A DNA stretch of 64,000 nt from Prorocentrum cordatum (Eukaryota): positions 1,922,001 to 1,986,000 of the forward strand of contig CAUYUJ010000001.1 in the NCBI GenBank assembly GCA_963575745.1, read 5' to 3'. The number at the start of each line of letters is the position of its first letter. Within the stretch, counting starts at the first letter, position 1. A program made the position numbers and the translations under genes. Positions 1,955-48,107 of this stretch are shown here, piece after piece. The notes beneath the pieces were generated by a model. That model was given only the letters and a program-made list of their open reading frames with translations, searched no databases and had not been told where the DNA came from.

Positions 1955-2026
1955 TACCCCTTCCTGGGCGTCCTCCTGCCAGCGAGCGTGGACGAGGCCC
2001 GCGTCATCGGGGCGCGGCAGGGCCAG
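1955..2026 (+). CDS. Exon a of FAF2/UBXD8/PUX-like (UAS-coiled coil-UBX) host gene: YPFLGVLLPASVDEARVIGARQGQ
   Basis: ctgcgcag| acceptor, 72 nt, ends CAG|gc. YPFL...V..R.G resembles the C-terminal part of the UAS (thioredoxin-like) domain and joins the next exon in frame. Confidence 0.75.
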
Positions 2027-2759
2027 GCGAGCGCGCGCCGCGCCCTCCACGGCCTTCGCAGCGCCTGCCCCCGGTCTCTCCTGGGCCTCCCCCCCTGCTG
2101 CTCTTGGAGGAGCAAGGGTCGGCACACGCACGCGGCAGGAGCAGAAGCGGAAGCCCTCAGAGGCCTGCGCGCATTTCTCGGATCGGCACTGGGCCGTGCC
2201 GTTGCCGTTGCGGAGGGCCGATCTGGCGGGTCGGTCTTTCCTCGCAGGCCTGGAGGTTGACACCAACACCAATTTCGGCAGTGTACCTCCACCCTCCTCC
2301 TCCTCCTCCTCGTCCTCCTCGTCCTCCTCCTCCTCCTCCTCCTCCTCCTCCTCCTCCAGCGCCCCTGGCGCGCTCCGCGCGCCACGGCGGGGGGTCCGGG
2401 GCGGATCCAAGAAATCCGCGCCGAGCTCCGACCCGCGCGGGATCGGGGCGCCGGCGTTGGTGCGCTGATGATTTGGGCTCGGTTGTCTGGGGATCCAAGG
2501 GCTCCCCCGAGGGCGCGAAGTTATTCGCGCTTCGCGCTTCGCGGTCCTCGTTCCTTCTCCCCCTCCTCCTCGTCCTCCTATTCTCCCTTTGGGAGGGCGG
2601 CGCGAGAGCGCGAAGTTATTCGCGCTTCGCGCTTCGCGGAGCGCGAAGCGCGAAGCTGGGAGCCCTTGGGATCCCCCTGCCGCGCGGGGCTGGCGAGGGT
2701 GTTGCGACTCGTGCATGCATTCGCGAATCTCCGTCTCAAGCCTATCAGCTGCTTTTGTG

Positions 2760-3690
2760 TGCCTCTGCGGTCAGCGCTTCTCTTCGCAGGCGGCGGCAGT
2801 GGCTTCCCGGCTGCTCTAAGAAGCGTGCGCGGAGTGGACGGACTTCCAGATTGTCCCCCACCTCACGCACCTCTGTTTCGTGCTGGGGCCTGGGGTTCCA
2901 GAGGGTGTCCAATGGGCTCGGCCTCTCAAGGAGTGGCGCAGTCGGACGGCCGCAATCGCTCGTTCGGCCGCCGATTCGAGCGCCTCTGCCCGCTGGTACA
3001 CAGAGAGAGCGGCCAGCACGCTCTCGCACAAGTGCCAGCTCCTTCCGCTCTCGCGTCAAGAGGTCGCGGGCGAGCCCCATGGCTCGTGACTCCCCCAGTC
3101 CGCTTGGATGGATTTGCAGGCTCTCGGAGTCCCTCCCATCCCTCCGATCCGAGCGGTGGTGCTGGCGGCGCGGATGCGTGTTGTTCGGGAGACTGTTAGC
3201 GTGTGGCCGCAGATGTGCACGCGCCTTCTCGCGGAGGCCGAGGAACGCATGGCAGCAAGTCGGTGTGTCACGCGCGAGGGGGGGAGAAGCCCATGGCCGA
3301 CGTTCTGGAACGAACCCGCCTTCGCAAGTCGCTCCAGCTGGCGGCGGAGGCCTCTCCTCTCCTGGGCTTGCAGGAGGGTCTGGCGGCCCGCAGCGGGCTG
3401 GAGCTCCTCAGAAACGAGAGAACGGCGGCGCTCTCGACTGGCTCCCCGCACCTTCGCATCAAGACCCAGAGGACCCTCCAGCGCGGTGTCACCCCTGTGT
3501 TGGATCTCTCGGAGGGCGCCCTCCTCCGAGTTATCAAGGAAAGGCTCGGCCGCTGGTTTGACCTGGAGAGGAAATGCTGCAACGCGTGGACTGGGAGGGG
3601 GTTCGGGAGACGCTCAGCGCTCCCCCCTCCTCGTGGAAGATGGCGGCCGTTCGCACCTGGACGGGCGGGTGGGCGTGCGACACCCGACCT
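2760..3690 (+). mobile_element. Degenerate non-LTR retrotransposon ORF2 C-terminal remnant
   Basis: Frameshifted peptides VLAARMRVV..W, WPTFWNEPAFA and WKMAAVRTWTGGW..TR parallel, in order, the motifs of the remnant at 4250-5510. Confidence 0.5.
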
Positions 3691-3706
3691 CGCAACCCCG
3701 ACCCCG

Positions 3707-3862
3707 GATGCATTATGGGCTGTGATGCCCAAAGACTAGTGGAGCCCTGGATTCCTGGATGCCCAAAGACTGTGTGCACCCGACTATGCACTCCTGTGCC
3801 CAATTTTGGGCTGTGATGCCCAAAGACTGTGTGCACCCGACTACGCGTGAGCCCTGGATTCC
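3707..3862. repeat. Short scrambled duplications of (GGGCTGT)GATGCCCAAAGACT(GTGTGCACCCGACTA)
   Basis: Three copies of GATGCCCAAAGACT and two of GAGCCCTGGATTCC. Confidence 0.8.
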
Positions 3863-4249
3863 TTTCCCGGGTGGCTCTGGCCAGTGGCGCTCCGGTGCCG
3901 TCGTCGATGCCCCAGCTGTTCGCCCTCTGCCCCTGCTCCCTCCAGCGGCTTCGGCTTCGGTTCGTCTCGAGCCATGGTCACCATCCTCGACCCCACCACG
4001 ATGAGTGGAGAGGTCTTCGGGGGGATGGTGGCCCTCGGATTCCGAAGCGGCGGACTTTGCCCGAGCTGCGCGTCTTGCAGCTGACCTCCCGCACAGTGCT
4101 GGGGCTCGCCGGTGATTGCGAATGGGGCTTTCTTGGGGACGCTCGGCCTCCTCGGCCGCCTCCTCCTCCTCCTCCTCCTCCTCCTCCTCCTCCTCCTCCT
4201 CCTCCTCCTCCTCCTCCTCCTCCTCCTCCTCCTCCTCTCCTCTGGACCA

Positions 4250-5510
4250 GAACCTCCCCTGAGGTGCATGCCCTTGTAGAGGCCCGACTCCAGTCTGTTG
4301 CCCCGTCGTTTTCAAGCTTTCCGATCAGGGGTCGGGCCAAATACCTGGGAATGTTGTTCGGTCCAGAGGCCACTCTTGATATGCAATGGGAGGCTCCAAG
4401 CACGAAGCTTGGATATCGAGTCCGTCTGGCCGCCTCCACTCGTGCACCTGCCGAAGCCTCCTGCAGGAACTATAGCTCATGCTCTCTCCCCGTCCTCCCT
4501 TACCTCGTGCAGTTCTTTCCCCTCCCGTCCTTTCTCCTCCGCAAAGAGCACTGGCTCCTGCATAAGCTGCCTCGGCTGCCTCCGAACACGTTTAAACGTG
4601 ATGAGCTCCTCGGTCTTCGACTGGCTTCCAGGATCGGCGCCTGCGGCGATGATGGTCCTGGCTCGTGCCTCTGTGTGGCGGTTCGGGCTCTCCACATGGA
4701 CAAAGGCCAGACAGTTCTCACAGCTTCTGAGAGAGTGGCACTGGTGGCACGGCACGAGTGTTAGGCACGTTCGTGGCGAATGGTCTCCACCGTGCTGGGT
4801 TCTGAGTCGGTCGATTGCCCAATTCGTGGCTTCTGTTCTGGATGCCTCCCCCTCCGACCTCTTCCCGCGTGCAGCCCTGCACGAGGCAAAGTTTCGAGGA
4901 GTGGAGGAGCAGCTTGCTGCTGCCTCGGAGGGGAGGAGGCCTAGAATCCAGCGTGTCCTGTCCCGATCCCTTTCCTCTTCCCTCTTCCCTGATCGCCTTC
5001 ACCTCCTCCTTTCCCGCCGCCTCCACTCTTGGATTCCATCCATGAGGTGCCCTGGCCCCCAAGAGATGGAGGTGAGATGGCTCGCCTTGATGGCTGTGCT
5101 GGCCCGATCGCCTCCGTCTTGGGTTTGGGCGCATCTGAAGACGCTAGCAGGTGGATGGGTCACGACCGCGCGCATGCCTGTCTTGGCTCGTCGAAGTTGC
5201 TGATTGGGTTGCGAGGGCTGTCTCGACTCTTTTCCTCACAACCTCTGCTGCCCTCGTCTCCTCCATCTGCTCGCCCGACGTCGCCCTCGCGTCTTTCTGC
5301 CGTCCTGCCCCATGGCTCGGTTCGGAGTCGGCCTTGATGAGGACTATTCGAATATTTTCTCTCGCGTGGACGCGCACCGCACGTGTGTCCTCGCGTTACC
5401 TTTTTACCATAAACTGAAAGCAGAGCAGGATGCGTCGCCTGGCTCTGCCCGAGACCTCGAATCTCACCTGCAGATTCTCAGAGGTGTCAGGCTCTCATCG
5501 GGAGCCTGAG
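4250..5510 (+). mobile_element. 5'-truncated LINE (non-LTR retrotransposon) remnant: RT thumb to CCHC zinc knuckle
   Basis: AKYLGMLFGP (RT KYLG motif), Y...LPVLPYLVQF, LKTLAGGWVTTARM, then SC*LGCEGCLDSFPHNLCCPRL (C-terminal CCHC); frameshift and stop present. Confidence 0.75.
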
Positions 5511-5641
5511 GATGGAGGATGGCTTCTTGAAGGCACGTGCTCTCCCCTCGCGTCTCTTTGCGCTTCAACCTTCTTGTTGCTTCTGCTCCCGCTCCGGGAT
5601 GCTCCCTACTCCTCCAGCACCTTCTGCGCTCCTCCGCCCCT

Positions 5642-6173
5642 TTCTCCTCTTCCTCCTCCTCCTCCTCCTCCTCCTCCTCCTCCTCCTCCTCCTCCTCCTC
5701 CTCCTCCCCCTCCTCCTCCTCCTCCTCCTCCTCCCCCTCCTCCTCCTCCTCCTCCTCCTCCTCCTCCTCCTCCTCCTCCTCCTCCTCCTCCTCCTCCCCC
5801 CTTCTCCTTCTCCTTCTCCTCTTCCCACTTGCACCTCCATCAACACCTCCTCCTCGTCCTCCTCCATCAACGCAACCTCCTCCTCCTCCTCCTTGTGATC
5901 ATCCTGCTGCTCCTTCTGGTCCTCCTTTTCCTCTCGTTCCATCTTAGTACGATTGCAATCATCATTGCTAATATCATTGCTAGATGTTTGTGTCATTTGT
6001 TCATCGGTGTTCGTTGCTCGATTATCATTGTTGTTAGTCGTATCAGCATTCGTACTTTGTATATGTGAATCCGTATATCGTATTTCCATTATTCGTGCTC
6101 TCATTGTTCTTATGATTGGCATCAGTCGTGTTGTTCGTGTAGTTGATACCACTAGTACCAATATTAATAATGA

Positions 6174-6205
<32 letters not shown>

Positions 6206-6249
6206 ATAGTAGTAGTAGTAGTAGTAGTAGTAGTAGCAGTACTAGAAGC

Positions 6250-6319
<70 letters not shown>

Positions 6320-6503
6320 ATAGTAGTAGTACTAGTCGCAGTAGTAGTAGCCCTAACTAGTTGTAGACGTAGTCGTAGTAGTAGTAGTAGTAGTAGCAGC
6401 AGCAGCAGTAGCAGTAGTAGTAGTAGTGGTAGTATTAGTAGTGGTGGTAGTAGTAGTCATAGTAGGAGTCGTAGTAGCAGTAGTAGTAGTCGTCGTCGTA
6501 GGC

Positions 6504-6547
<44 letters not shown>

Positions 6548-6571
6548 CGTAGTAACAATAGTATAAGTAGC

Positions 6572-6603
<32 letters not shown>

Positions 6604-6731
6604 GAGTAGCAGTCGTAGTAGTAGAAGTATCAGTAATACTAGTGATAATAGCAGCATCAGAACCAGTAGTTGTAATTGTAATAGTAGTAGTAGTAGTCGT
6701 CGTCGTAGTAGTAATAATAGTGGTAGTAGTG

Positions 6732-6788
<57 letters not shown>

Positions 6789-6874
6789 CTAGTGGTAGCA
6801 GTAGTAGTACATGTAGTAGTAGTCGGCGTCGTAGTCGTAGTCGCAGTCGCAGTCGTAGTAGTAGTAGTAGTAGC

Positions 6875-6918
<44 letters not shown>

Positions 6919-7105
6919 TAGTAGTAGTAGAAATAGCAGTAGCAGTCGTAGTAGTAATAGTAGTAGTAGCAGTAGTAGTAGTAGTAGTAATAGTAGTAGT
7001 AGTAGTAGTAGTACTAGTAGTAGTAGTAGTAGTAGCAGTAGCAGTAGCAGTAGCAGTAGCAGTAGTCGCATCAGCATTCGTGGCAGTGGTGGTAGTAGTA
7101 GTACC
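5642..7105. repeat. (CCT)n tract followed by a ~0.9 kb (AGT)n microsatellite
   Basis: Directly visible. Confidence 0.95.
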
Positions 7106-7399
7106 TGAATCAATCGTACTATCATTCGTATTCAGCTTCCGGTTACTAGTACCAGTTGTTGTTTTCCGATTGTTATTTTCTTCTGAGTTATATTCGTATG
7201 TTCCTTATGTTTCTTTTTCTTCCTCCCCCTCCTCGTCCTCCAACCTCCACCTGCTCCTCCACCTTCTCCCCCTGCTCCTCCTCGTCCTCCTCCTCCTCCA
7301 CCATCCCTGTTCCTTACGAGAACTTCTTCCCTGTCACACCCCCATGCGCGTCGGTAGGGCGCGCCAGGCTTTCGCCTGAGATTTCCCGCCCTCCGTGAT

Positions 7400-7910
7400 C
7401 CTGAACGTTTGCAGAATGTCGTTTTCGCTTCAGCGCCGCGCGCATTCAGTTTGGAAATGTACAACAGCTTCACGGATGGAGTGCGCGCTTTAGAGTTGCG
7501 CAGATTCGTCTTACAAGTTTGCAGCAGTTCACGAATGAAGGGCGTCTCTTTTTCAAAAGTTGGTTATCGATTTACCGCCGAGCTTGTTTTGCTTTGGAAG
7601 GTTGCAGCAGTTTCAAGAATTCGCATGGTCGAAGTCCCAGGATGTGTGCTCTGGCAAGGCTTAGGGTTGCCAGAACGCAGCAGCCATGTTTGGCTCGCGG
7701 TGTTGACGTCCCAGGATGGTGTCCTGCCGCGTTTTAGGATTGTTAGGACGCAGCGGCCACGTTGATTCGCGACGCCGAAGTCACAGGAGCCGTGTTTTGG
7801 TACGATTGAGGATTCTCAGACGTGTGTTTCCTGATGGGGCATGTCTGTTCACATAGAAAGACCCTGCCGTGAGGGCACTTAGAGGGAGGGTATGTTGCAA
7901 CATCGCTGAT
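7400..7910 (+). repeat. Dispersed repeat, homologous to 47520-48005
   Basis: Shared blocks CACGTTGATTCGC, GTGTTTTGG.ACG.TTGAGGATTCTCAG, ATGGGGCAT and CGCGCATTC. Confidence 0.65.
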
Positions 7911-8039
7911 GCCTTTCAAGTTTGCGCTGGTCCTCCCCTCTTCCTCCTCCTCCTCCTTCCTCCTTCTCCTCCCTCCTCTTCCCTCCTCTCTTCCTGCCCC
8001 GGACGCCTTTCCCACCCTCCCCCGGTTCCCCCCGCCAAG

Positions 8040-8084
8040 GTTGAGGTGGACGCCATCGTGGCTCTCCTGACGCAGTGCCTTGAG
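8040..8084 (+). CDS. Exon b of host gene: VEVDAIVALLTQCLE
   Basis: Pyrimidine-rich tract then gccaag|G, 45 nt, ends GAG|ga. Fits the last UAS helix. Confidence 0.75.
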
Positions 8085-8619
8085 GACCCCCATTGGGCGG
8101 CACCGGCGCCCTGGGGCCGCCCGTCCGCGTGAGGGGGGTGCGGGGAGGTTGGGCGTTCAAGGGACGGGGCGCAGCTACCCGTCCTTTTCGGACAGGCGAC
8201 GGGAAGAATGAGGAGGGCGAGGGAAACATGATTGAAGAGGAGAGGGGGAGGAGGTGGAGGAGGAGGAGAGGCAACGAGAGGATGAGTAGGAAGACGAGGG
8301 ACACGAGGAGAAGGAGGAGGAGAAAGAGGAGGAGGAAGGGGACAACGAAGAGGGAAGGGAGGAAACAGGAGGAAGAAAAAAGTGGAAGAGGAGGGGGAAA
8401 GGGAGGAGGAGGATGAAGAGGAGAAGAGGAAACAATGGACGAGGAGGGGGAGGAGGAGGAGGAGGAGGAGGAGAGAAGGAGGAGGAATAGGAGGAGGAGG
8501 AGGAGGAGGAGGAGGAGGAGGAGGAGGAGGAGGAGGAGGGGAGGTCGAAAAGGAGGAGGAGGAGGAGGAGGAGGAGGAGGAGGAGGTGCGCGCCCTCGTC
8601 GTCGCGGCCGTGGCGATTC

Positions 8620-11050
8620 AGGTGGAGCATCTGAGGGGTACGGTGTGCCTTTTTGAGAATGTCGTTGCGTGGCCACCCTCATGCGGGATGTTCTCGGCAA
8701 CGACATTGCGAGGGGCACGTGGAGTGCACGGGTTTCGTGACAATGCCGTGTTGGAAGAGCTGCTATGTCCATCCACAGCTGGCAACGCTCCTGATTATAT
8801 GCGTAGGTGATGTGCAACTGCCTGGTCCGTAAACATCCTTGAAGCAGGACTGGGAGATCTTGCTCACGCCTTCGGAAAAACCGACCGAAAGGGGTAGACA
8901 TGGATCCTCCGATTGACGCTGGCAGATGTTTCGGGTGCGAACGTAGAGTGTGCGAGCGAGACATAGATCGGCAGGGCGAAAATCCAGTTGCGTTGGATCC
9001 AGCCCCGCCAAAGCCAGTGACAGTAACAGAGTCCGTGGCCACTCTGGGCCGACTGGCTCTATATGACGACATGGGCGGTCATTGTTCTGGCGAGGTCCGG
9101 TCCGAATTTTTCGAAGTATCGGAAAACCTTCGGGAGAGGGCCAGCATAGCATCAGGCAAGGCGCCGCGTGACTTACCAACGACACAGAGGGACTCATCAA
9201 CGCTGAGTATTGCCTTGGAAACGATACCCGATGCTCCCAGAAGGTCAGACGGTGCCACTCACATCACACTGTCCTCTAGCATGAGGACTTGGAAACTTTT
9301 GATTTTCCGCGGATCTATAGCTGCGCTGTAGAAGCGCCAGTGGAGGTTCCCTTGGGCACTGCCCCAAAGTCGCATGCTCCAGGCCCAAAAAAGAAAGTCA
9401 GAGTGATCGTCTGCATTATGGAGGATCAATTTTCCTCGCGTGTTGCGTCATATGCCGAGATGACTGACCCCGACCTAAAGACGCACCTGATTGCGGATAC
9501 TCCCCTCGGGCCTAACACAGAGGAGTACGAAGGCGGACAGTATGGGCCCCGGGGGATATCCTGCCCCCCGCAGAGGATTATATAGCTGACTTTCTTGGCA
9601 TCGATGCCGATGTTGGCCCCCTTCAGGCCGCGCGGCGCACGGAGGTCCATTGAATTCGTCCGCAGAGGACAGGCGCCAGCCTGCACAGTCGGGCAGGCTT
9701 TCGCCGATAGCGGCCCAGGTTCCCATGAAGATACAGCACGGCGCCCGCATGGCTCGCTGCGACTTCTCGAAGGCGCCTGCGAGTCAGCCAGCTGCGTCAC
9801 GACATTGACTGAACAGTAGGATGCGGAAGTGTTCCAGCTGATTTGTTATGTCCCGACTATGTCCGACATTCCAATGCTGAGTCAGGTTGCGGATGCCGAC
9901 CTGGTCAGTAACATCCGACCGCGCGGAAGTAGGGGCGCAAGTAATCAGAAAGTCTGGGGGGACCACATTCCTCGGCCAATCAGACGACGTCGTCGAGACG
10001 ACAGACGCGCGTGGCCCATGGTGCCCCAGAGGCGGGAATCGTCGCGGCTGGCTTGGGGCCGATAGCGGAGCTCTTGCCCGCGTCGCCGCTGTGGGAGACC
10101 TTGTCGGGGCGAACGCTTCCGTATATTTTTCCCGGGCGCAGTCAGGCGGCGCGCGAGATGTGCCATGCGGGGGGTCGCGACTATTCCAGCGCGCGCCCCG
10201 TGCCCATTGCCAAAGCGCTTCAGCCACGGCCGAGCAGAATGCGCGTAGAAGCGTTGGACTGGTGCATGAGAGAGTACAGCCAGCGTGCAGATGTCGGAAA
10301 CCTGGAACCGATCTCATGGGTCAAAGTGTCAACGTCGTCCACTCGGTTCAGGTAGTGGCACAGAAATTGCCAACTCTGCCCCGGGGCCAGATTATTAGAC
10401 GTTTTTTACACTTCGCACACGAAGACGCCGCCGCCCTGAAACTTTGGCGGGCGGCCCAACCGCCCGCCGGGTCGTCGTCGAAGTTGCGGCCCAGAAGCAG
10501 CTCGATCAAACCGAAATGGGCCAAGAAACCAGAGCGCGATGGCAGAGGGCGGCCCGCGGACTCCGTCAATCCAGCAACCGGCTGAGGCCGGGCTGGCCAG
10601 GCGCTAGCGGCGGCCGCGCTCCAATATTTCATCGCGACCTGGACCTGGACCGCGCGTTGAATGACTGTGCTGCTCCGCGAGCCGTTGAGGGCGTTTCCGC
10701 GGACAGCCCGTGCGACTTGCTTCTAGTAAGGTTTTGCTGCGGTGAATATATTGGATTAGGACTGCCGAGGCCCGTGCCAACAGGAACCTGCGATGCATCG
10801 AGGCCGATAAAAGCAGATGAGTTCACCGCTGAACCTGGGCGCGAAAAAGGCGATGCGATTTATTCGCGGGGCGGCTGGAAGCACGTTGCACCGCGGGCCC
10901 CCATGCCGCGTGCAGGGGGCTACCCTGGGCCGTGTTTGAATGAGGCCATCCACCGTCGGCAAAAAATCTTGGCCCTGAGAACCCTCGGTGGCAGCGAACT
11001 GCGGCTCGGTCGTCGACTTGGCCTTTAGGTGAATTAGCACGCGTGGTGCT
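8620..11050 (-). mobile_element. Highly decayed DIRS/Ngaro-like (tyrosine recombinase) retroelement: RT, RNase H, YR
   Basis: Ordered minus-strand motif relics: FSRPGSAVNS (~10830), FLAHFGLIELLLGRNFDDD (~10475, RT xxDD), VVTQLADSQAPSR (~9790, RNase H end), PYCPPS..CVFRSGSVISAY (~9500, YR N-terminus), THIIR..GW (~8800, HxxR). Many stops and frameshifts. Confidence 0.5.
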
Positions 11051-12435: not shown

Positions 12436-12498
12436 TGCGTGGACTACAACAACTTCAAGAGTGACGGCTGCAATGGCTCGCCTTGCGGATTTGCCCAC
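12436..12498 (+). pseudogene. CCCH zinc-finger relic (CVDYNNFKSDGCNGSPCGFAH), gag-like
   Basis: C-x10-C-x4-C-x3-H spacing in a disrupted coding-like region. Confidence 0.4.
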
Positions 12499-37970: not shown

Positions 37971-38122
37971 CCAGCCTGGAACATATCCCTATCCCTATGC
38001 TGGACACCTCCTCATCACGATGCCAATCTTAGGGATTCCCTTATTTTTTGAGGGCGAATCCCTAATATTGTCATCGCCTTTGGGCGTGCCAATCTTAGGG
38101 ATAGGGATACGTTCGAGGCTGG
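37971..38122. mobile_element. MITE family D (TA-flanked, Tc1/mariner/Stowaway-like)
   Basis: TA|CCAGCCTGGAACATATCCCTATCCCTA ... TAGGGATAGGGATACGTTCGAGGCTGG|TA. Confidence 0.65.
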
Positions 38123-39178
38123 TAACTGTTGGCATAGGTGTCCGGTCTCCCAGCGCCATGTCGGGCGGGGCAAGGACCAGGGCAGATCGCTCCAGAGCGT
38201 TCCGGCACGCTCTCGTGGCGCTCCCGTGCGACCTCTGCGGCCCGACCCATCGAAGGAGGCGGGGAGGCTTCTTGGAAGGCAGGGGCCTTCTCAGATGGCC
38301 TCGGGGGCCTCGAAAGGCTCGGAAGTGTTGCTCCGAACGCCACACCGAGGCCCCAGTAGGACCCGAGTGACAAGTGAAGGCTTCTGCTCCCAACCCCGTC
38401 CGCATCAGCGGGCGCGCGGCCCAAACGCCACCCCCAATAAATGTATAGACACGGGCTTCCGCCTGCAGGGGGGGGGGACCCTGGGACTATCCACTCCTTG
38501 GGAATTTCATTCAGGAGAGAAGATGAAGCCTTGTGTTCGGCGATTCTGCATGGACGTCCTCAAATTATGCATGGTCTGGCTCCCAGTTGTTTGGCTCGTT
38601 TGGCCCTTGGCTTGGCATGGTTTGGGCCCAGTTTCTCCTGTGACGTCCACGGAATTTGCGTGGTTTGGCTCGGTTTGGCTTGATTCGGGCACGCTTTCGT
38701 TTGAGACGTGCTTGACATTTGGCACGTTTCGCCTTGGTTTGGGCCCCGTTTCGCTTGAGACGTCCTCGCAAGCTGTTTGGTTACAAGGCTTGCGGAGCGA
38801 AACGTCAGCGAATGTTTGCACGGTTGGGTACCATACGTTATGGTCGCCATGCGGTCTTAGCACGCAGTGGGATGTGTTACGTGTTCGTCGACATTAAAAG
38901 GTTATTTAACACACGAGGAGGTGGGCGTGTGCAAACCGAAGTAATGGCACAATGTCATGAACCCCTATGGTGGTCCACATGTAAAACGGCAGTGCTACAA
39001 CATGGCGGGCGGAATGGCTGTGGACATTGCCAACACGCTGTGGATCGGCATGGCCGCGTGTGGTGGCGTCAGTAGACGAACCGCTCCCAGGCTGCAGGAA
39101 GGTTTCTCAGAAGCACCAGGCGGGCGCCTGCGAAGCCCCCCCCTGCCTTCTCAGAAACCACGCCGCCTTCTCAGGATT

Positions 39179-39270
39179 CCACCCCACTCGCGCCACCCCC
39201 GTCGGTCGGCATCACCCCAGCGTAGTGTCTGGGGTGATGCCGACCGACGGGGGTGGCGCGAGTGGGGTGG
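39179..39270. repeat. Perfect hairpin, 42-bp arms, 8-nt loop
   Basis: CCACCCCACTCGCGCCACCCCCGTCGGTCGGCATCACCCCAG-cgtagtgt-exact reverse complement. Confidence 0.95.
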
Positions 39271-39738
39271 GCTCAAAATCTTGTAGTCTGAGCTCCGTGG
39301 CGGGCGCTTTCTGGGCAGACCGCTCGGGAGCGACGTAGTACAAGATTTGTGTAGTACGTGCTCGCGTCGGACGTGCACCTCCAACACCAGCACGTGGGGC
39401 GCTCTCGGAGGTCCGCGCGCACTTCTTGGACCGGCGCTGGAGCCCCTGGCGGCGCCGGATCGCGCCAGGGGGGGGAGGTCCAGCGCCGATCCACGAAATC
39501 AGCGCGGACCTCTGAAAGTCCATTTTCCGGCAACCCGCCGCCAGCGCCCTCGTGCGCCCTCGTGCGGTCTCGGGGCCGCGGGCGTCGCGGGGCGGGCGGC
39601 GCGCGAGGGGCCATCCGAGATGCGCGGTCCGTGAGGAGAGATCTAGGGAGGAGGAGGGGGAGGAGGAGGAGGAGGAGGAGGAGGAGGAGGAGGAGGAGGA
39701 GGAGGAGGAGGAAGACGAAAAGGAGGAGGATGGGGAGG

Positions 39739-39774
<36 letters not shown>

Positions 39775-40218
39775 AGGAGAGAGAAAGCGATGGAGGATGA
39801 GGAAGAGAAGGAGGAGGAGGAGGAGCAGGAGCAGGAGCAGGAGCAGGAGGAGGGGAGTATGCGGAGGAAGGTGACGAGGTTTGGGTCAGAGGAGGGAGGT
39901 GCCGTAATCATGATATGTCGCAGGAGTTCCAGGATTCCCCTGGTGCCCTCATGGTCTACACGGGCTGCAGAGACGCGCTCAGTTAGATATTCCCTGGAAC
40001 TCCTGGAGCGCATCCTGAGCCAATCTCACCATGGTCGGAGTGAGGGGGCTGAACCGAACGGTCATTCACTGTCCCTGGGTGGGTGCGTGGCTGAAGTTGA
40101 ATTTCGCTATGTGGATTATTGTTGTTGTTGTTGTTGTTGCTGTTGTTGTTGTTGTTGCTGTTGTTGTTGTTGGTGTTGTTGTTGTTGTTGGTTGTTGTTG
40201 TTGTTGAACATTATTTAT

Positions 40219-40965
40219 TCTAAAGAATAATTATTGTTGGGCCCCCTGGTGCGCGCCCCCCCTGCGCCGCCTAGGCCGCAGCTACATTTTCATCATTTTC
40301 GTGAGGAAGCCTCAGAAAAGAGGGTGTGTACAGGATCCGGTTGTTTTGTTGTAATCCGCTTTCCCTTGCAAAAAACAATAGAAAATGACATTTCTTGTTC
40401 TAATATAATCAAATTTCAAGAATCCCTTGCAAGAAATAAGGTAAAGTGGACATTCGCGCGCGCAAGACGAAATCCTTCCAAAAGCTTAGTGTTCGCAGCG
40501 ATTTTAACATAAAAACATCAAAAAAACAATGGTTTTTCAACAAAAAAATGTCAAAATCTCATCCCGCGCGCTCTTGCGGATTCGTAGGAAACCCAACACT
40601 TTTTTAAACATTTCTGTCAAACGGGCTTTTGCGAGCAACTTTTTCGAACTTCTGCGACAACGGTTGCGCACCTGCCAGGGCCATCATCCCTGTCAAATAA
40701 TACCATGCGGGACACATTCGTTTTTTCTTCGCGCGCGCACGCCGTCGTCGTCGGCCGCGGGGCCCTGAATAGTAGCCACGGTCGTCCGCATGCCACGAAG
40801 TGAAGTGTCCGAACGTCATAGGGCGGGAAGCTGGGTGTGGGTGGTGGCGAAGAGTCGTTTGGAAATTTGGTAGAGCTTGAACCGGCCCCCCCACAAAGTG
40901 GGGGTATTGCCCGCCTCCTATGAAAACCCTGGCACTGGTGAGAACGGAGTGTCCCCACGTGCTAG
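40219..40965 (+). mobile_element. Non-autonomous Helitron-like element family 2, copy 1
   Basis: Starts TC(TAAAGAATAA) and ends with an imperfect hairpin then CTAG|T; sits in (GTT)n; near-identical copy at 43319-44149. Confidence 0.6.
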
Positions 40966-41089
40966 TAATTGTTGTTGTTGTTGTTGTTGTTGTTGACGAA
41001 ACCACTAGCTGGCGGACCGGCCCCCCCCCCCCCCCCCGCGCAACGCAGCGCAACGCAACGCAACGCTCTCCCCGCGCGCCCCCCCGCGG

Positions 41090-41925
41090 GGCGTACAGGG
41101 ACCCGTACAGGGTTCTATAGGGCTCCCACAGGACCCCTACAGGGTTCCATAGGATTCCTATAGGACCCCTACACGGTTCCATAGGATTCCTATAGGACCC
41201 GTACAGGGTTCCATTGGACTTTTGTAGGAGCCGCACAGGGTTGGATCGGACCCCCATAGGACCCCTACAGGGTTCCATCGGATTCCCATAGGACCCGTGT
41301 AGGGTTCCATTGGACTCCTATAGGACCCCTACAGGGTTCCATGGGACTCCCATAGGACCCCTACAGGGTTTCATAGGACTCCCATACGACCCAGACAGGG
41401 TTCCTGAAGACTCCCATGGAACCCCGACAGGGTTCCATAGGACTCCCATAGGACCCCTACAGGGCTTCATAGGACTCCCATAGGACCCCTACAGGGATCC
41501 ATCGGGTTCCCATAGGACCCGGACAGGGTTCCATCGGGTTCCCATAGGACCCGGACAGGGTTCCATGGGACCCCCATAGGACCCGTACAGGGTTCCATCG
41601 GACTCCCATACGACCCCTACAGGGTTCCATCGGATTCTCATAGGACCCGTACAGGGTTCCATCGGACTCCCATAGGACCCCTACAGGGATCCATCGGGTG
41701 CCCATAGGACCCGTACAGGGTTCCATCGGACTCCTATAGGACCCCTACAGGGTTCCATGGGAGGCCCATAGGACCCCTACAGGGTTTCATAGGACTCCCA
41801 TACGACCCAGACAGGGTTCCTTAAAACTCCCATGGGACCCCTACAGGGTTCCATAGGACTCCCATCGGACGCCTACAGGGTTTCATAGGACTCCCATAGG
41901 ACCCCTACAGGGTTTCATCGGACTC
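41090..41925 (+). repeat. 32-bp tandem array A (~26 units, CATAGGACCCCTACAGGGTTCCATCGGACTCC)
   Basis: Directly visible. Confidence 0.95.
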
Positions 41926-41927
41926 AT

Positions 41928-43065
41928 CGGACTGTATGGGATCCCATACGGATCCTATACGGACTGTATGCGGATCCCATACGGATCCTTATGGGACGTA
42001 TGGGATCCCATACAGTCCGTATAGGATCCGTATGGGATCCCATACAGTCCGTAGAGGATCCGTAGGGGATCCCATACAGTCTGTATAGGATCCGTATGGG
42101 ACCCCATACAGTCCGTATAGGATCCGTATGGGACCCCATACAGTCTGTATAGGATCCGTAGGGGATCCCATACAGTCTGTATAGGATCCGTAGGGGATCC
42201 CATACAGTCTGTATAGGATCCGTATGGGATCCTATACAGTCTGTATAGGATCCGTATGGGATCCTATACAGTCTGGATAGGATCCGTAGGGGATCCCATA
42301 CAATCCTTATAGGATCCGTAAGGGATCCCATACAGTCCTTATAGGATCCGTATGAGACCCCGTACAGTCCGCATAGCATCCGTATGGGGATCCCATACAG
42401 TCCGTATCGGATCGGTAGGGGATCCCATGCAGTCCGTATAGGATCCGTATGCGATCCCATACAGTCCGTATAGGATCCGTATGGGATCCCATGCAGTCCG
42501 TATAGGATCCGTATGCGATCCCATACAGTCCGTATAGGATCCGTATGGGATCCCATACAGTCCGTATAGGATCCGTATGGGATCCCATACAGTCCGTATA
42601 GGATCCGTATGGGATCCCATACAGTCCGTATAGGATCCGTATGGGATCCCATACAGTCCGTATAGGATCCGTATGGGATCCCATACAGTCCGTATAGGAT
42701 CCGTATGGGATCCCATACAGTCCGTATAGGATCCGTATGGGATCCCATACAGTCCGTATAGGATCCGTATGGGATCCCATACAGTCCGTATAGGATCCGT
42801 ATGGGATCCCATACAGGCCGTATAGGATCCGTATGGGATCCCATACAGGCCGTATAGGATCCGTATGGGATCCCATACAGTCCGTATAGGATCCGTATGG
42901 GATCCCATACAGTCCGTATAGGATCCGTTGGGATCCATACAGTCCGTATCCTAGGGGATCCCATACAGTCTGTATAGGATCCGTATGGGATCCCATACAG
43001 TCCGTATAGGATCCGTATGGGATCCTATACAGTCCGTATAGGATCCGTAGGGGATCCCATACAGT
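41928..43065 (+). repeat. 32-bp tandem array B (~35 units, GTATGGGATCCCATACAGTCCGTATAGGATCC); first two units inverted
   Basis: Directly visible; each unit holds the perfect 16-bp palindrome GTATGGGATCCCATAC. Confidence 0.95.
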
Positions 43066-43318
43066 GGGAGCTCCCGTAGGGTCACACACCCCCCACCTGC
43101 CCGCGCAACGGAACACAACGCAACAGAGGCTGCTCATACAGCCGTGTTGCGTTGCGTTGCGTTGCGTTGCGGGGGGGGGGGGGGGGGGGGGTCCTGGTAC
43201 ACCAGTGGGTTGTTTCGCTACATGGAGCAAAACAGCGAACTGGTGGACCGGCTCCGGGTACACCAGCAGGTTGTTTTGCCTTGTTGTTGTTGGTTGTTGT
43301 TGTTGTTGCATTATTACT

Positions 43319-44149
43319 TCTAAAGAATAATTATTGTTGGGGCCCCTGGTGCACGGCCCCCTCGCCGCGCCTAGGCCGCAGCCATGTTTTCATCATTTTC
43401 GTGAGGAAGTCTCCGGCAAAACGGGTTGGTCCGGATCCGGTTGTTTTGTTTCCCCCCGCTTTCCCTTGCAAAAAACAATATAAAATGACATTTCTTGTTC
43501 TAACATAACCACATTTCAAGAATCCATTGCAACAAATAAGGTAAAGTGGACACTCGCGCGCGCAAGACGAAATCCTTCCAAAACCTTAGTGTTCGTAGCG
43601 ATTTTAACATAAAAACATCAAAAAACCAATGGTTTCTCAAAAAAAAAAAGTGTCAACATTTCATCCCGCGCGCTCTTGCGGATTTGTAGGAAACCCAACA
43701 CTTTTTAAACATTTCTGTCAAACGGGCTTTTGCGAGCATCTTTTTCACGTGCTTCGAACTTCTCCAACAACGGTTGCGCACCTGCCAGGGCCATCATCCC
43801 TGTCAAATAATACCATGCGGGACACATTCGTTTTTTCTTCGCGCGCGCACACCGAAATCTTCAAAAACCATTGGAACAGGGGGAAAAGTCGTATACTACG
43901 TTAGCGTCCAGAAAATGTTACCACAACAAGTCACTGTACCCATGCGCCAGTGTAGTAGCCACGGTCGTCCGCAGGCCACGAAGTGAAGTGTCCGAACGTC
44001 ATAGGGCGGGAAGCTGGGTGTGGGTGGTGGCGAAGAGTCGTTTGGAAATGTGGTAGAGCTTGAACCGGCCCCCCCACAAAGTGGGGGTATTGGCGGGCGT
44101 CGTACGAAAACCCTGGCACTGGTGAGAACGGAGTGTCCCCACGTGCTAG
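43319..44149 (+). mobile_element. Helitron-like family 2, copy 2
   Basis: Homologous to 40219-40965 with an extra block at ~43850-43950; same TC..CTAG|T ends. Confidence 0.6.
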
Positions 44150-44310
44150 TAATTGTTGTTGTTGTTGTTGGTGGTGGTGATTGTTGGTTGTTGGTTGTTG
44201 GTTGTTGGTTGTTGGTTGTTGGTTGTTGTTTGTTGTTTGTTGTTTGTTGTGTGTTGTTTGTTGTTTGTTGTTTGTTGTTTGTTGTTTGTTGTGTGTTGTT
44301 GTTGTCGTCG

Positions 44311-45125
44311 TCCCGCCCGCGACCCACCCCGACCCCCACCCGCGACCCCACCCGCTACCCACCGCGACCCACCCGCGACCCACCCGCGACCCACCCCGCG
44401 ACCCACCCGCGACCCACCCCGAGACCCCCTTGCGATCCACCCGCGACCCACCGGCGACCCACCCGCGACCCACCCGCGACCCACCCGCGACCCACCCGCG
44501 ACCCACCCGCGACCCACCCGCGACCCACCCGCGACCCACCGCGACCCACCCGCGACCCACCCACGACCCACCCCGCGACCAACCCAAAATTTTCGGCGCC
44601 TGCGGCGGATTCTGTTGCATGCTTTCCAGGTGGAGAACCTGCGACCCACCCGCGACCCAAACCGCGTTCAGTGTACAAATCCAAATTTTCGGCGCCTGCA
44701 GCGGGCTGTTTTTGAATTCCTTCCAGGTGGAGGTGGAGAGCCCGCGACCCACCCGCGACCCAAACTACGTTCATTGCGCAAGCCAAAACTTCGGCGCATG
44801 CGGCGGGTTTCTTTTGCATCGGCGACCCACCCGCGTCCCACCGGCGACCCACCCCGAGACCCACCCGCTACCTACCCCGCGACACACCCGCGACCCACCC
44901 GCGACCCACCCGCGACCCACCGCGACCCACCCGCGACCCACCCGCGACCCACCCCGCGACCCACCCAAAATTTTCGGCGCCTTTTGTATTCGATCCAGGT
45001 GCAGAACCTGCGACCCACCCGCGACCCAAACCGCGTTCAGTGTACAAATCAACATGTTCGGCGCCTGCGGCGGGCTGTTTTTGAATTCCTTCCACGTGGA
45101 GGTGGAGAGCCCGCGACCCACCCAG
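44311..45125 (+). repeat. 11-bp (CCCGCGACCCA)n arrays interleaved with a duplicated ~170-bp module
   Basis: Module AAAATTTTCGGCGCC..CAAACCGCGTTCAGTGTACAAATC..GGAGGTGGAGAGCC at ~44585 and ~44965. Confidence 0.9.
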
Positions 45126-48053
45126 CATCGACGCCCGCGTCGCCCGCGCCCGCCCCCTCACTCTTATCCGCAATGGCGGCGTGCTACGTCTTAGTCTCGT
45201 CTTATTGGAGGAGGAGGAGGAGGAGGAGGAGGAGGAGGAGGAGTCCTTCGATCAGACGGGTGGAGGGAGCGGGAGGAGGAGGAGGAGGCGGGCAGTGCGG
45301 ACACTGCTGGGGCTACGCGGGCTCGCCAGGGGCCACGGTGAAGTTTTGTCGAGGCCGCGCGAGGGGCGAAGTCGCCATGGATTCGCGCGGCGCTTGGGCA
45401 AAACCTCTTGGTCATTCGGGCTCCCAGGAGGGGACTGCGCTACACATCCTCGGGGGGGCCTTTCCCGTCGAATGAGCGGCGGTGTCTTCTTGCATTCGGC
45501 ACGAATTGGACGCGGCGCGATGGGAAAGACCACATCCCCCGAAAAGACAGCCCAAGGTACGGGGACAGGCGGGGCGGGCGAAATCTGGTCGAAGACACCG
45601 CTTCACGCGGGTTGCCAATGCGGCCCGCCAGACGCACATGGGGAGGCCGTATGGGCGGGTGCCTCGCTGGGAGGTGGGTGGGGCGAGGGGGAAGGGGAGC
45701 ATCTCCCTTCACGTCCTCATTCCCTGCTCTCCTCCCCGACGCGTCTTCACCTCCTCTCCTCCTTCTACTCGCCCTCCTCCGTTCCCTTCTGGCGATTTCC
45801 GTGCCCTGCGCCTGCCGGTGCACGACATGGAGATGCTGATGGCCTGCCCCTCACGCTTCTGGACGCTTGCCATGATGCGCTCGACGACGCGCGGATTGTT
45901 CGTCTGCCAGTCCACCATGGCCGCGGCGGACAGGAGGAGGAGGAGGAGGAGGAGGAGAAGGAGGAGGAGGAGGAGGAGGAGGAGGAGGAGGAGGAGGGCG
46001 TGCGGCCCACGCGGTGGCCCCGCAGCAGCTGCGGCTGCGCCTGGACGCCCGCGGACGCATCGGGCTCGCCACGGCAGGAGGTGGACCGCACCCTCGCGCC
46101 GGCTGCGCGCGCGCTGGGCCTCCCTGAGAGCTGCGCCGGAGGAGGAGGAGGAGGAGGAGGAGGAGGAGGAGGAGGAGGAGGAGGAGGAGGAGGGGGAGGA
46201 GGAGGAGGAGGAGGAGGGGGAGGAGGAGGAGGAGGAGGAGGAGGAGGAGGAGGAGGAGGAGGAGGAGGAGGGGAGGCCCCGAGCTGGCAGCTGCACGCGC
46301 GGCAATATCCGAGGAGCAGCTCCAGCGGCTGCTGCTGGCGGGAGGGGGCGACAGTGGGGGGCGGTAGGGGCCTGGGCCGTTTCGCGGCGAAGGCGCCGTC
46401 CCCCCTCCCTCGCGCACGCGATGCTCGTCTTCAGCATCTTGCGTGGCGACCTCTGAGGCCCTCTTGACCGTCGTTTCTTCCTCAGTCCTCCTCGCGCGGC
46501 TCGACGACCACATTCGATATGCGCGTCCTCCTTTCCCTTCTCCTCAACCACCTCCTCATCCTTGTTCTCCTTCCCCCTCTTCTTCGCCATCCTCGTCGGC
46601 CTGACCGGAGGACGTGAGTGAAGGGAGTAGGGGATGCTCTGAGCCCCGACTGCTTACAGGACGAACCAAACCTAGGAGCCGCGACGATGAGTTCGCCTTG
46701 ATAGCCATTACCAGCCAGCATGATATCTACTACCTAGGATGTTTGGATACTGTAATCGTGTTCCTCTCAGTATCCTCCTGCGCCGCGAGTGCGGACCCTC
46801 AAGCGAATCAGACTCCCATGGCTTTCACGCGGATTGCACCAGGGCGAGAACGAACAGTGGTAGGGCCTTTCAGTTACAGAGCGCTCAGGAGGGAAGACAC
46901 CCCAATGGAAGTGCAGGCTCGCCGATGTTGCGACGTCGCCCATTGGCCCTGGCCCCAAGACGTCAGCAAACTGAGGGGCCATCCCGCCTAGGGAGGCGGG
47001 GGGAGACCGAACTCATCACCTAATCTGTGCGTTGGGCCCCCCCCCCCTCCTCGTCCTCCGTCCACTCTCCCTGTGTGTACAGCTCATCCCCCGTCGCACC
47101 CCCCAGGGCGTGCCGGTGGGGCGGGCGGGCCAGGCGTCTCGCTGCAGGTGTTCGCTCGCCGTGCACGAGAGCCTTAGGCGTGCGAGAGGTGCAGGCAGCT
47201 TCGCGGGTGGAGGGCGGGCCTGGTTTCAACAGGTGGCTCCCGCTTCCGCGCCGCGCTCCCTTCGTATTGAAAAGGCGTGCAGCACCGTGACGGAACGGGG
47301 GCGGGCGGTGCTCAGACTGTACCTATCGTCGCCTGCGGTGGAGAGGCCAGTCCACAGGAGAGCCCTCCACGAGAGCCCCAACCCTGAGGCCCCAGGGCGT
47401 CCATTGGTTCTTGGCGCGGGAGCGTCGCGCTTTCCATCGCAGAGCCGTATCGGAACCCCGGAGACACTGGGCACCCTGGAGGCGAGCAGGGTGTTTCTTG
47501 GCATGGGTTTCTATTGTAAGCGTCGCGCGCATTCGTCTTAAACGTGTGCAACCGTGTCACGGGCGGAGGACGGGCGGCTTCCAAATTGGGTTTTCTTTTT
47601 ATCTCTACGAAAATCCGTGTAAAAGCTTGGACCAGGTTCAGGGATGATGAGCGAATCTGTTTCATAATGAAGTTCTCGCTTTCGCACCGCGCACATTCGT
47701 CTTGGAAAGTTCGTGACGGGCCCAACGATTCGCACCGTCAAAGTCCAAGAAAAGTGTCCTGCAAAGACGTAGCCTGTCAGGGCGCAATCGCCACGTCGAT
47801 TCGGAGCGTTGACAACCCAGGAATGGTGTTCTGGCACGATGTAGGGCCGTCAGGGCGCAACGGTCACGTTGATTCGCACCGCTGACGTTCCAGGAATTGT
47901 GTTTTGGAACGGTTGAGGATTCTCAGGCGGTTGTCTTCCAATGGGGCATTTCCCGCAATGAAAAGTGAACCGGGAAATATAGGGGAGGCTTTATTGCATC
48001 GTTGATACGTCTTCGGTTAGCAGTGGTCCGCTTTCTACCCCTCCTCCGCGCAG

Positions 48054-48107
48054 GAGCTGGCGGCCAAGAGGCAGAAACACGCTGCGGCGCTGGACGCCCT
48101 GGGCGAG
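48054..48107 (+). CDS. Exon h of host gene: ELAAKRQKHAAALDALGE (could extend to 48116, ..GEAPE)
   Basis: ctccgcgcag|G ... GAG|gc. Resembles the end of the coiled coil just before the UBX domain (..L.EEP). Confidence 0.6.

What the first reader, a model, noticed from the sequence alone, without database searches (positions are those of the whole stretch)
1955..48107. Hidden host gene: 402 coding nt spread over 46 kb as eight phase-0 micro-exons with no GT donor
Seen: eight short segments splice in frame to YPFLGVLLPASVDEARVIGARQGQ|VEVDAIVALLTQCLE|EMESHRAQITAHREQQIE|DRNLREDQDREYQEALE|VDRKRQEEQRRQDE|ERREQERREAEQRQK|EEEELQALEKRKE|ELAAKRQKHAAALDALGE. Every exon ends in AG; donors are GC, GA, GA, GC, GA, GA, GA, GC; introns are 0.3-16 kb. 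Known: this motif order is that of FAF2/UBXD8/PUX p97 adaptors, and GC/GA donors are a dinoflagellate trait. Inferred: almost everything else in the window is intronic.
Basis: partly seen in the sequence, partly recalled or inferred. Interest (0 to 1): 0.7.

Follow-up and report, generated by a model that had tools for sequence, protein, structure and literature searches.

The report
Dinoflagellate FAF2 gene in micro-exons
The eight short segments are real exons of a p97-adaptor gene (FAF2/UBXD8 type) from a dinoflagellate, very likely Prorocentrum, split by long introns with GC/GA starts, which is the normal gene style of these algae.

Summary
All eight peptides lie colinear on the + strand at the stated coordinates; each follows AG, ends in AG and is followed by GC or GA. 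A 474-aa protein from a 1,537-nt public contig (P0001) holds the whole 134-aa concatenation as one contiguous stretch. P0001 aa 249-386 match the window exactly, so the segments are joined as predicted. P0001 carries UBA-like, UAS and UBX Pfam domains above cut-off, and 87 relatives are mostly dinoflagellate transcriptome proteins.

Corrections:
- Exon 8 most likely ends at 48116, not 48107, giving 411 coding nt.
- The gene exceeds the window. P0001 aa 1-247 and the UBX domain (aa 387-474) are absent from it.
- The non-exon DNA holds other coding-like elements.

No junction placement gives GT-AG. Published Prorocentrum cordatum statistics match: 59.7% G+C, mean intron 4,709 bp, donors GT 24.7 / GC 51.4 / GA 23.8%. 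Exon 4 encodes the conserved helix motif through which human FAF2 contacts UFD1 and ubiquitin.

Verdict: a correct reading of an ordinary dinoflagellate gene, with low novelty.

The parts
1..1954 (+). 3' part of the intron upstream of the first exon seen here. It holds (AGG)n, (ATG)n and (GAG)n arrays at 978-1934, running to about 20 nt before the acceptor.
   Evidence: P0001 aa 1-247 have no exact or significant match in the window.
1955..2026 (+). Exon (72 nt), P0001 aa 249-272, YPFLGV...ARQGQ. It encodes the last two beta-strands of the thioredoxin-like UAS domain. Donor AG|GC.
   Evidence: Strands 251-257 and 263-270 in the model.
2027..8039 (+). Intron, 6013 nt, GC...AG.
8040..8084 (+). 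Exon (45 nt), aa 273-287; start of the long central helix. Donor AG|GA.
8085..24326 (+). Intron, 16242 nt, GA...AG. It contains the minus-strand 1,023-codon open frame at 16550-19618.
24327..24380 (+). Exon (54 nt), aa 288-305. Donor AG|GA.
24381..28070 (+). Intron, 3690 nt, GA...AG, flanked by a 9-nt direct repeat CGAG|GACAG. It contains a ~90-nt satellite at 24634-25866.
28071..28121 (+). Exon (51 nt), aa 306-322, DRNLREDQDREYQEALE. It encodes the conserved FAF2 'activation motif' (L309, R310, Q313, D314, Y317, L321). Donor AG|GC.
   Evidence: Conservation. Motif residues from PMC13578712.
28122..30730 (+). Intron, 2609 nt, GC...AG.
30731..30772 (+). Exon (42 nt), aa 323-336; holds invariant D324. 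Donor AG|GA.
30773..31105 (+). Intron, 333 nt, GA...AG; largely an (AGG)n array.
31106..31150 (+). Exon (45 nt), aa 337-351. Donor AG|GA.
31151..37238 (+). Intron, 6088 nt, GA...AG. It contains the ~90-nt satellite in reverse orientation at 34803-35411.
37239..37277 (+). Exon (39 nt), aa 352-364. Donor AG|GA.
37278..48053 (+). Intron, 10776 nt, GA...AG. It contains 32-nt satellite arrays at 41099-43065, flanked by 300-nt direct repeats.
48054..48116 (+). Donor AG|GC.
   Evidence: exact match through ...GEAPEA, i.e. to 48119. The AG|GC rule places the donor at 48116; this last step is an inference.
48117..64000 (+). Presumed next intron (at least 15.9 kb, incomplete). No UBX-coding exon is detectable. 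It holds same-strand coding-like frames at 60599-61807 and 62663-64000.

Best explanation
The window carries the middle third of a nuclear dinoflagellate gene. The source is most likely Prorocentrum cordatum or a close relative. The gene encodes a FAF2/UBXD8-type adaptor of the p97/Cdc48 ATPase with this layout: UBA-like domain, hydrophobic hairpin, thioredoxin-like UAS domain, long central helix, UBX domain.

Eight phase-0 micro-exons (39-72 nt, 411 nt in total) are separated by seven introns of 0.3-16 kb. The spliceosome of this lineage removes the introns at AG|GC or AG|GA donors and AG|G acceptors. Exon 1 encodes the last two strands of the UAS domain. Exons 2-8 cut one continuous helix of about 105 residues into pieces of 13-21 residues.

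Exon 4, with the first codons of exon 5, encodes the conserved motif (L-R-x2-Q-D-x2-Y-x3-L-x2-D) through which human FAF2 contacts UFD1 and ubiquitin and speeds substrate unfolding by p97-UFD1-NPL4.

Shown here: the exon coordinates, the joins, the domain content, the absence of any GT donor, and the conservation of the motif.
Inferred: the protein's function as a membrane-anchored p97 adaptor, the exact 3' end of exon 8, the organism, and that the missing 5' and 3' exons lie outside the window.
For: Coordinates and splice context:
- Eight colinear segments with AG acceptors and AG|GC or AG|GA donors.
- P0001 (474 aa on a 1,537-nt contig, too short to hold any of these introns) matches the window exactly over aa 249-386, in eight pieces in order.
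- P0002 (477 aa, contigs of about 1,526 nt, 88% identical overall) shows the same uninterrupted sequence.

Family:
- Pfam on P0001: FAF1/UAS 52.5 bits (cut-off 27), UBX 49 (21), UBA_4 39.4 (21.8).
- Best solved-structure match is human FAF1, E 3e-18, over aa 156-436.
- 87 relatives at E <= 1e-5, mostly dinoflagellate transcriptome proteins. Source labels include Alexandrium monilatum and Noctiluca scintillans (UniRef), two JGI rows 'FAS-associated factor 2', and plant FAF2 at 27% identity.

Coding signal and structure:
- Exon GC1/2/3 is 0.825/0.343/0.891, against 0.64/0.61/0.64 in 189 long background frames.
- AlphaFold2 model, mean pLDDT 83.8: strands 251-257 and 263-270, helix 275-379.
- 7 of the 15 residues fixed in the human FAF2 activation motif are identical at offset +20, against at most 2 at ten other offsets. 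L309, R310, Q313, D314 and D324 are invariant in 61 of 61 aligned sequences.

Splicing and lineage:
- No junction slide gives GT-AG in any of the 7 introns.
- The window's G+C is 0.606 and its mean intron 6,536 nt. P. cordatum: 59.7%, 4,709 bp, donors GT 24.7 / GC 51.4 / GA 23.8%, AGG acceptor 79.7% (PMC10666404 Table 2).
- Two other frames in the window are 87-92% identical to NCBI proteins labelled Prorocentrum cordatum.
Against: - No RNA reads were laid on the locus, so the joins rest on intronless contig-derived proteins whose nucleotide sequence I could not fetch (one search returned only a 29% relative). A processed retrocopy would give the same protein, though it too would descend from a spliced mRNA.
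- The UBX exons (aa 387-474) and aa 1-247 are absent from the window, and same-strand coding-like frames lie in the 16 kb after exon 8. This copy could therefore be 3'-truncated, or the assembly could be broken there.
- Neither homology list (73-2000 aa, 260-830 aa) returned a protein labelled Prorocentrum cordatum for this gene. The organism label therefore rests on paralogous elements and on composition.
- The spliced-leader motif gave 0 matches. That is uninformative here because the 5' end of the gene is outside the window.
- The UBX loop reads FPS in the dinoflagellate proteins where the plant FAF2 sequences read FPR, so p97 binding is assumed, not shown.
Confidence: 0.9

Rival explanations
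1. The locus is a partial (3'- and/or 5'-truncated) recent duplicate of the FAF2-like gene, not the expressed full-length copy. P0001 would then be transcribed from an identical paralogue elsewhere in this multi-gigabase, duplication-rich genome.
For: No exon for P0001 aa 387-474 lies in the 15.9 kb after exon 8, and none for aa 1-247 in the 1.95 kb before exon 1. Same-strand coding-like frames of another family lie at 60.6-64 kb. The P. cordatum paper describes extensive gene duplication (passages).
Against: 138 of 138 residues are identical to P0001, and all eight AG acceptors and all AG|G(C/A) donors are intact. An intron of 16.2 kb exists inside this same gene, so a next intron longer than 15.9 kb is not unusual.
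Confidence: 0.08
2. The segments are chance open frames, or a prediction artefact, in G+C-rich repeat-laden DNA; there is no gene.
For: Long open frames are common in this window: 189 stop-to-stop frames of 150 codons or more on the two strands. Exon 1 alone gave 0 Pfam families.
Against: There is an exact colinear 138-aa match to a protein on a 1.5-kb contig, and the positions conserved across 61 homologues fall inside these exons. GC3 is 0.89 against a background of 0.64. All eight acceptors and donors are uniform.
Confidence: 0.01
3. The seven introns are young insertions of introner-type mobile elements at AGG sites, which would explain the micro-exon pattern and the direct repeats at each junction.
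For: Every junction has a direct repeat of 3-9 nt (3, 4, 9, 3, 6, 5, 6). True donor/acceptor pairs share 36 nt in total against a mean of 29.0 (sd 2.4) for mismatched pairs, and 0.3% of 1,854 derangements reach 36. The spliced 411 nt hold 26 AGG sites. P. cordatum introns are reported as enriched in introner elements.
Against: 0 of 7 introns has an inverted repeat of 8 nt or more within 30 nt of its ends (best 7 and 6 nt; control fractions 0.04 and 0.14), so the published introner definition is not met. The repeat excess is carried mainly by intron 3. The AG|G consensus at both sites gives 3 nt for free. No intron ends resemble each other beyond that.
Confidence: 0.1

Closest known systems
Human FAF2/UBXD8 (and plant FAF2/PUX10-type, yeast Ubx2-type) membrane-anchored p97/Cdc48 adaptors
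   Same: Same domain order: UBA-like, hydrophobic segment, UAS, long central helix, UBX (human layout from PMC13578712). Similar size: 474 aa against 445 aa. 7 of 15 activation-motif residues are identical in register. Plant proteins labelled FAF2 are found at 27-28% identity over 64-96% of the length.
   Different: The glycine/alanine-rich linker after the UBA domain is of low confidence (aa 64-111, pLDDT below 50). The UBX loop reads FPS, not FPR. Membrane anchoring and p97/UFD1 binding are untested. The PUX10 and Ubx2 comparisons are recalled, not tested here.
Human FAF1
   Same: Best solved-structure match: 9yw2_H, E 3e-18, over UAS-helix-UBX; also 2ec4 (UAS) and 3qq8 (UBX).
   Different: FAF1 has two UBL domains where this protein has a hydrophobic segment (layout from PMC13578712). 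P0001 shows no UBL domain in Pfam.
Dinoflagellate nuclear introns with GC/GA donors and AGG acceptors (Symbiodiniaceae, Polarella, Prorocentrum cordatum)
   Same: Donors are G followed by C or A. Acceptors are AG, followed by G in 7 of 8. Introns are long and the DNA is G+C-rich, as in PMC10666404 Table 2, PMC11453091 and PMC5177918.
   Different: 0 of 8 donors are GT (expected 24.7%; P = 0.10) and 5 of 8 are GA (expected 23.8%; P = 0.022). Exons average 51 nt against the published mean of 240 nt. Intron density is about 17 per kb of coding sequence against about 3.5. These are local peculiarities, not a different mechanism.
Introner elements (Amoebophrya, Polarella, P. cordatum)
   Same: Short direct repeats at the intron ends.
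   Different: No terminal inverted repeats of 8-20 nt in 0 of 7 introns.

Membership tests
FAF2/UBXD8-type UBA-UAS-UBX p97 adaptors | N-terminal UBA-like domain | tested here: met
   PF14555 39.4 bits (cut-off 21.8) at P0001 aa 15-58. This part is encoded outside the window.
FAF2/UBXD8-type UBA-UAS-UBX p97 adaptors | Hydrophobic hairpin between UBA and UAS (this distinguishes FAF2 from FAF1, which has UBL domains there) | tested here: inconclusive
   The highest 19-residue hydropathy window starts at aa 126 (1.69), within FPIVGWFVREIRRLGVSIFGVITTFIFGPGG. The model shows helix 114-139 at pLDDT about 60. No UBL domain was found. Membrane insertion cannot be tested here. This part is encoded outside the window.
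FAF2/UBXD8-type UBA-UAS-UBX p97 adaptors | Thioredoxin-like UAS domain | tested here: met
   PF21021 52.5 bits (cut-off 27); PDB 2ec4 (FAF1 UAS) E 5.5e-7. Its last two strands (aa 251-270) are encoded by window exon 1.
FAF2/UBXD8-type UBA-UAS-UBX p97 adaptors | Long central helix carrying the UFD1/ubiquitin-contacting activation motif | tested here: met
   Helix 275-379 at pLDDT 85-98. 7 of 15 motif residues are identical at one offset only, and 5 of them are invariant in 61 of 61 sequences. Encoded by window exons 2-8.
FAF2/UBXD8-type UBA-UAS-UBX p97 adaptors | C-terminal UBX domain | tested here: met
   PF00789 49 bits (cut-off 21) at P0001 aa 384-467. It is not present in the window.
FAF2/UBXD8-type UBA-UAS-UBX p97 adaptors | UBX loop motif FPR that contacts the p97 N domain (motif recalled, not from a call) | tested here: inconclusive
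   The 7 dinoflagellate sequences of A1 read SFPS or SFPT where the 2 plant FAF2 sequences read NFPR. F443 and P444 are invariant; the Arg is not.
FAF2/UBXD8-type UBA-UAS-UBX p97 adaptors | Physical binding to p97/Cdc48 and UFD1 | not testable with these tools
   No complex prediction was run, and no dinoflagellate Cdc48 or UFD1 sequence was in hand.
Dinoflagellate-type spliceosomal introns | Donor G followed by T, C or A; acceptor AG, usually followed by G | tested here: met
   7 of 7 complete introns are GC/GA...AG. 7 of 8 exons start with G. No slide gives GT-AG.
Dinoflagellate-type spliceosomal introns | The flanking exons are joined in mature RNA | tested here: met
   Indirect evidence: exact contiguity in P0001 on a 1,537-nt contig and in P0002. 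No reads were mapped.
Introner elements | Inverted repeats of 8-20 nt plus direct repeats of 3-5 nt within 30 nt of the intron ends (definition in PMC10666404) | tested here: not met
   The best inverted repeats are 3, 4, 4, 7, 4, 4 and 6 nt. None is 8 nt or more.

The most novel reading that the evidence does not exclude
The one helix-coding stretch of this gene has taken up introns at about five times the genome's mean density. The introns sit at AGG sites and carry junction direct repeats longer than the splice consensus explains (up to 9 nt). The next exon lies more than 15.9 kb away, beyond a same-strand member of an unrelated multicopy gene family nested in the intron. Together this would mark a hotspot of recent duplicative intron gain by a mechanism that leaves no terminal inverted repeats.
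Probability: 0.12. Interest if true: 0.45.

Novelty: already known. Interest (0 to 1): 0.2.

Why it matters
The case shows that a tool-free reading of raw dinoflagellate DNA can recover a correct gene model from 39-72 nt exons spread over 46 kb. It also gives a clean, fully checked example of GC/GA-AG splicing.

Biologically the result is ordinary. FAF2-like p97 adaptors are widespread in eukaryotes, this protein is already in public transcriptome-derived collections, and the intron style is the documented norm for the lineage.

Two points have some practical value. No protein labelled Prorocentrum cordatum for this gene appeared in two homology lists, so micro-exon genes of this type may be missed or fragmented by annotation. 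And the UFD1/ubiquitin-contacting motif of human FAF2 is conserved in dinoflagellates and plants, which supports an ancient origin for that activation mechanism.

Tried and rejected
- Whole-genome search: no genome is held for this window.
- Pfam on exon 1 alone (24 aa): 0 families. Seven exons are too short for the tool.
- RNA evidence: no RNA holder was listed for window:28000-37999, so no reads could be laid. This is no evidence either way.
- Nucleotide contig of P0001: the metagenome scan returned only L001, a 29%-identity relative, so the junctions could not be checked at nucleotide level.
- Earlier scan notes: nothing to show.
- UBX and N-terminal exons in the window: tblastn at permissive settings gave only noise (best 18.9 bits) or low-complexity glycine-run hits.
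- Pfam on the 150 longest stop-to-stop frames of each strand (minimum 109 and 118 aa): no convincing family. The single hit above a curated cut-off (Nha1_C, 26.1 against 23.7, at 52135-52824 minus strand) lies on trinucleotide arrays and is taken as low complexity.
- Spliced-leader relic: 0 matches with up to 3 mismatches.
- Introner signature: not met.
- ESM Atlas on P0005: no usable hit.
- Pfam on relatives of P0006 and on P0004: nothing above cut-off.
- Literature search for dinoflagellate together with FAF2, UBXD8 or UBX domain: none of the 8 papers listed (of 205 holding at least 2 terms) contains 'dinoflagellate'. I make no claim of absence from print beyond that listing.
- Uniform phase 0 as a special feature: rejected. 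22 of the 26 AGG sites in the spliced stretch are at codon boundaries, so phase 0 follows from Glu/Gln/Lys codons followed by G.

Full report
**Observation.** The window is 64,000 nt with no N and 60.6% G+C. A script located all eight peptides of the finding on the + strand, in order, at 1955-2026, 8040-8084, 24327-24380, 28071-28121, 30731-30772, 31106-31150, 37239-37277 and 48054-48107. Each is preceded by AG and ends in AG. The following dinucleotides are GC, GA, GA, GC, GA, GA, GA, GC. Seven of the eight segments start with G, and most acceptors follow a C-rich tract.

**Are the segments joined?** Exon 1 alone is too short for the searches: Pfam gave 0 families, and two calls failed on length. 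An unchanged 41-aa window stretch containing exon 1 was searched against longer proteins and returned two hits. P0001 is 474 aa, from a JGI source, on a 1,537-nt contig. P0002 is 477 aa, from Logan, on contigs of about 1,526 nt.

Exact-word mapping shows P0001 aa 249-386 in eight colinear pieces of the window. A contig of 1.5 kb cannot hold 46 kb of introns, so it represents a spliced RNA or a copy made from one. P0002 and dozens of transcriptome-derived homologues read through the same junctions. Direct read evidence could not be obtained: no RNA run was listed, and the nucleotide contig of P0001 was not in the collection scanned.

**Corrections to the gene model.** After 48107 the frame continues APEA, exactly as P0001 does. 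GAG|GCGCCC occurs at both 48107 and 48116, so the donor consistent with the transcript and with the AG|GC rule is at 48116. Exon 8 is then 63 nt and the coding total 411 nt. This step is an inference, because the next exon is not in the window.

P0001 aa 1-247 and aa 387-474 have no match in the window beyond noise. The gene therefore extends past both ends, or this copy is truncated.

**Splice sites.** Every exon ends in AG, every intron ends in AG, and most downstream exons start with G, so each junction can slide by 3-9 nt. None of the possible placements gives GT-AG for any of the 7 introns, and only GC/GA...AG fits all of them.

Passages of PMC10666404 (Table 2) give these values for Prorocentrum cordatum:
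- genome G+C 59.7%;
- mean intron 4,709 bp;
- donors GT 24.7%, GC 51.4%, GA 23.8%;
- AGG acceptors 79.7%.

Passages of the review PMC11453091 and of PMC5177918 state the same trait for Symbiodiniaceae. Against those frequencies, 0 GT of 8 has P = 0.10 and at least 5 GA of 8 has P = 0.022, so neither is remarkable. The uniform phase 0 also follows from composition: 22 of the 26 AGG sites in the spliced 411 nt are at codon boundaries.

**What the gene is.** P0001 and P0002 carry UBA_4, FAF1/UAS and UBX domains above Pfam's cut-offs. The best solved-structure match is human FAF1 over UAS-helix-UBX, E 3e-18. Among 87 relatives, source labels name Alexandrium monilatum and Noctiluca scintillans, 'FAS-associated factor 2' twice, and plant FAF2 at 27% identity. 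A hydrophobic segment sits between the UBA and UAS domains, where FAF1 has UBL domains. This is the FAF2/UBXD8 layout.

An AlphaFold2 model built on a 61-sequence alignment has mean pLDDT 83.8. It places exon 1 on the last two strands of the UAS domain, and exons 2-8 on a single helix spanning aa 275-379.

Passages of PMC13578712 describe the equivalent human region (residues 275-347) as the part that bridges the p97 N domain to UFD1. They list 15 fixed activation-motif residues. At offset +20, 7 of the 15 are identical in P0001, against at most 2 at ten other offsets. L309, R310, Q313, D314 and D324 are invariant in 61 of 61 sequences. Eleven of the 15 motif positions fall in exon 4 (28071-28121) and four in exon 5. 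The function as a p97 adaptor is inferred from this homology and was not tested.

**Organism.** The source is inferred to be Prorocentrum cordatum or a close relative. The grounds are composition and intron statistics, and two other frames of the window that are 87-92% identical to NCBI proteins carrying that label. Those proteins are paralogues, not models of this locus. No protein with that label for the FAF2-like gene itself appeared.

**The rest of the window.** The introns are full of trinucleotide arrays and satellites (78 TRF rows). The 150 longest open frames of each strand gave no convincing Pfam family.

Three frames nevertheless look like coding sequence or former coding sequence:
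- 16550-19618 on the minus strand, inside intron 2 (1,023 codons). 97 aa are 92% identical to P0004.
- 60599-61807 on the + strand. It is 87% identical to P0105, with relatives at 29-38% identity.
- 62663-64000 on the + strand. GC3 is 0.81, and it holds three perfect 114-nt repeats.

**Intron origin.** The published introner definition is not met: 0 of 7 introns have terminal inverted repeats of 8 nt or more. True donor/acceptor pairs share more direct repeat than mismatched pairs, 36 nt against 29.0 +/- 2.4, and 0.3% of 1,854 derangements reach 36. The excess comes mainly from intron 3 (9 nt), so I treat it as a weak hint of duplicative gain at AGG sites.

**Verdict.** The feature is a normal dinoflagellate gene of a well-known eukaryotic family, so novelty is low.

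Noticed in passing
window 16550-19618 (-): A 1,023-codon open frame on the opposite strand inside intron 2, far longer than chance allows at about 65% G+C. 97 aa (18431-18721) are 92% identical to P0004, an NCBI 'unnamed protein product [Prorocentrum cordatum]', with weaker colinear pieces further on. It has no Pfam family. It is probably a nested or decayed member of a multicopy family.
   Followed up: partly
window 60599-61807 (+): A same-strand open frame downstream of exon 8. It is 87% identical to P0105, a partial P. cordatum protein from another contig, and 29-38% identical to proteins on ENA contigs of 1.4-8.5 kb. It has a Cys-x2-Cys...His-x5-His-like stretch followed by repeated helical units (75-nt tandem repeat at 61066-61214). 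No Pfam family was found for it or for its relatives.
   Followed up: partly
window 62663-64000 (+): An open frame that runs off the window end, with coding-like composition (GC1/2/3 = 0.71/0.48/0.81) and three 100%-identical 114-nt (38-aa) tandem repeats at 63456-63793. The Atlas search gave no usable hit.
   Followed up: partly
window 40209-43608: Two adjacent 32-nt satellite arrays (41099-41925, about 26 copies; 41934-43065, about 36 copies), bracketed by 300-nt direct repeats at 40209-40508 and 43309-43608 (88% identical). They lie in the lowest-G+C part of the window (0.518) inside intron 7. This is possibly a composite repeat element.
   Followed up: no
window 24634-25866 and 34803-35411: The same ~90-nt satellite occurs in intron 3 and, as its reverse complement, in intron 6. 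I read the orientation by eye from the TRF consensus units.
   Followed up: no
window 978-1934 and 6174-7066: About 950 nt of (AGG)n, (ATG)n and (GAG)n arrays end roughly 20 nt before the acceptor of exon 1, so that acceptor has no pyrimidine tract. A (TAG)n array of about 297 copies lies in intron 1.
   Followed up: no
junctions of the seven introns (e.g. 24377-24385 and 28067-28075): The direct repeats at true donor/acceptor pairs total 36 nt, against a mean of 29.0 for mismatched pairs. Intron 3 is flanked by the 9-nt repeat CGAGGACAG. In 5 of 5 GA-donor introns the first two intron bases equal the first two bases of the next exon.
   Followed up: partly
whole gene: No protein labelled Prorocentrum cordatum for this FAF2-like gene appeared among the hits, although other P. 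cordatum proteins are in the collection. The micro-exon gene may be unannotated or fragmented in the deposited annotation.
   Followed up: partly
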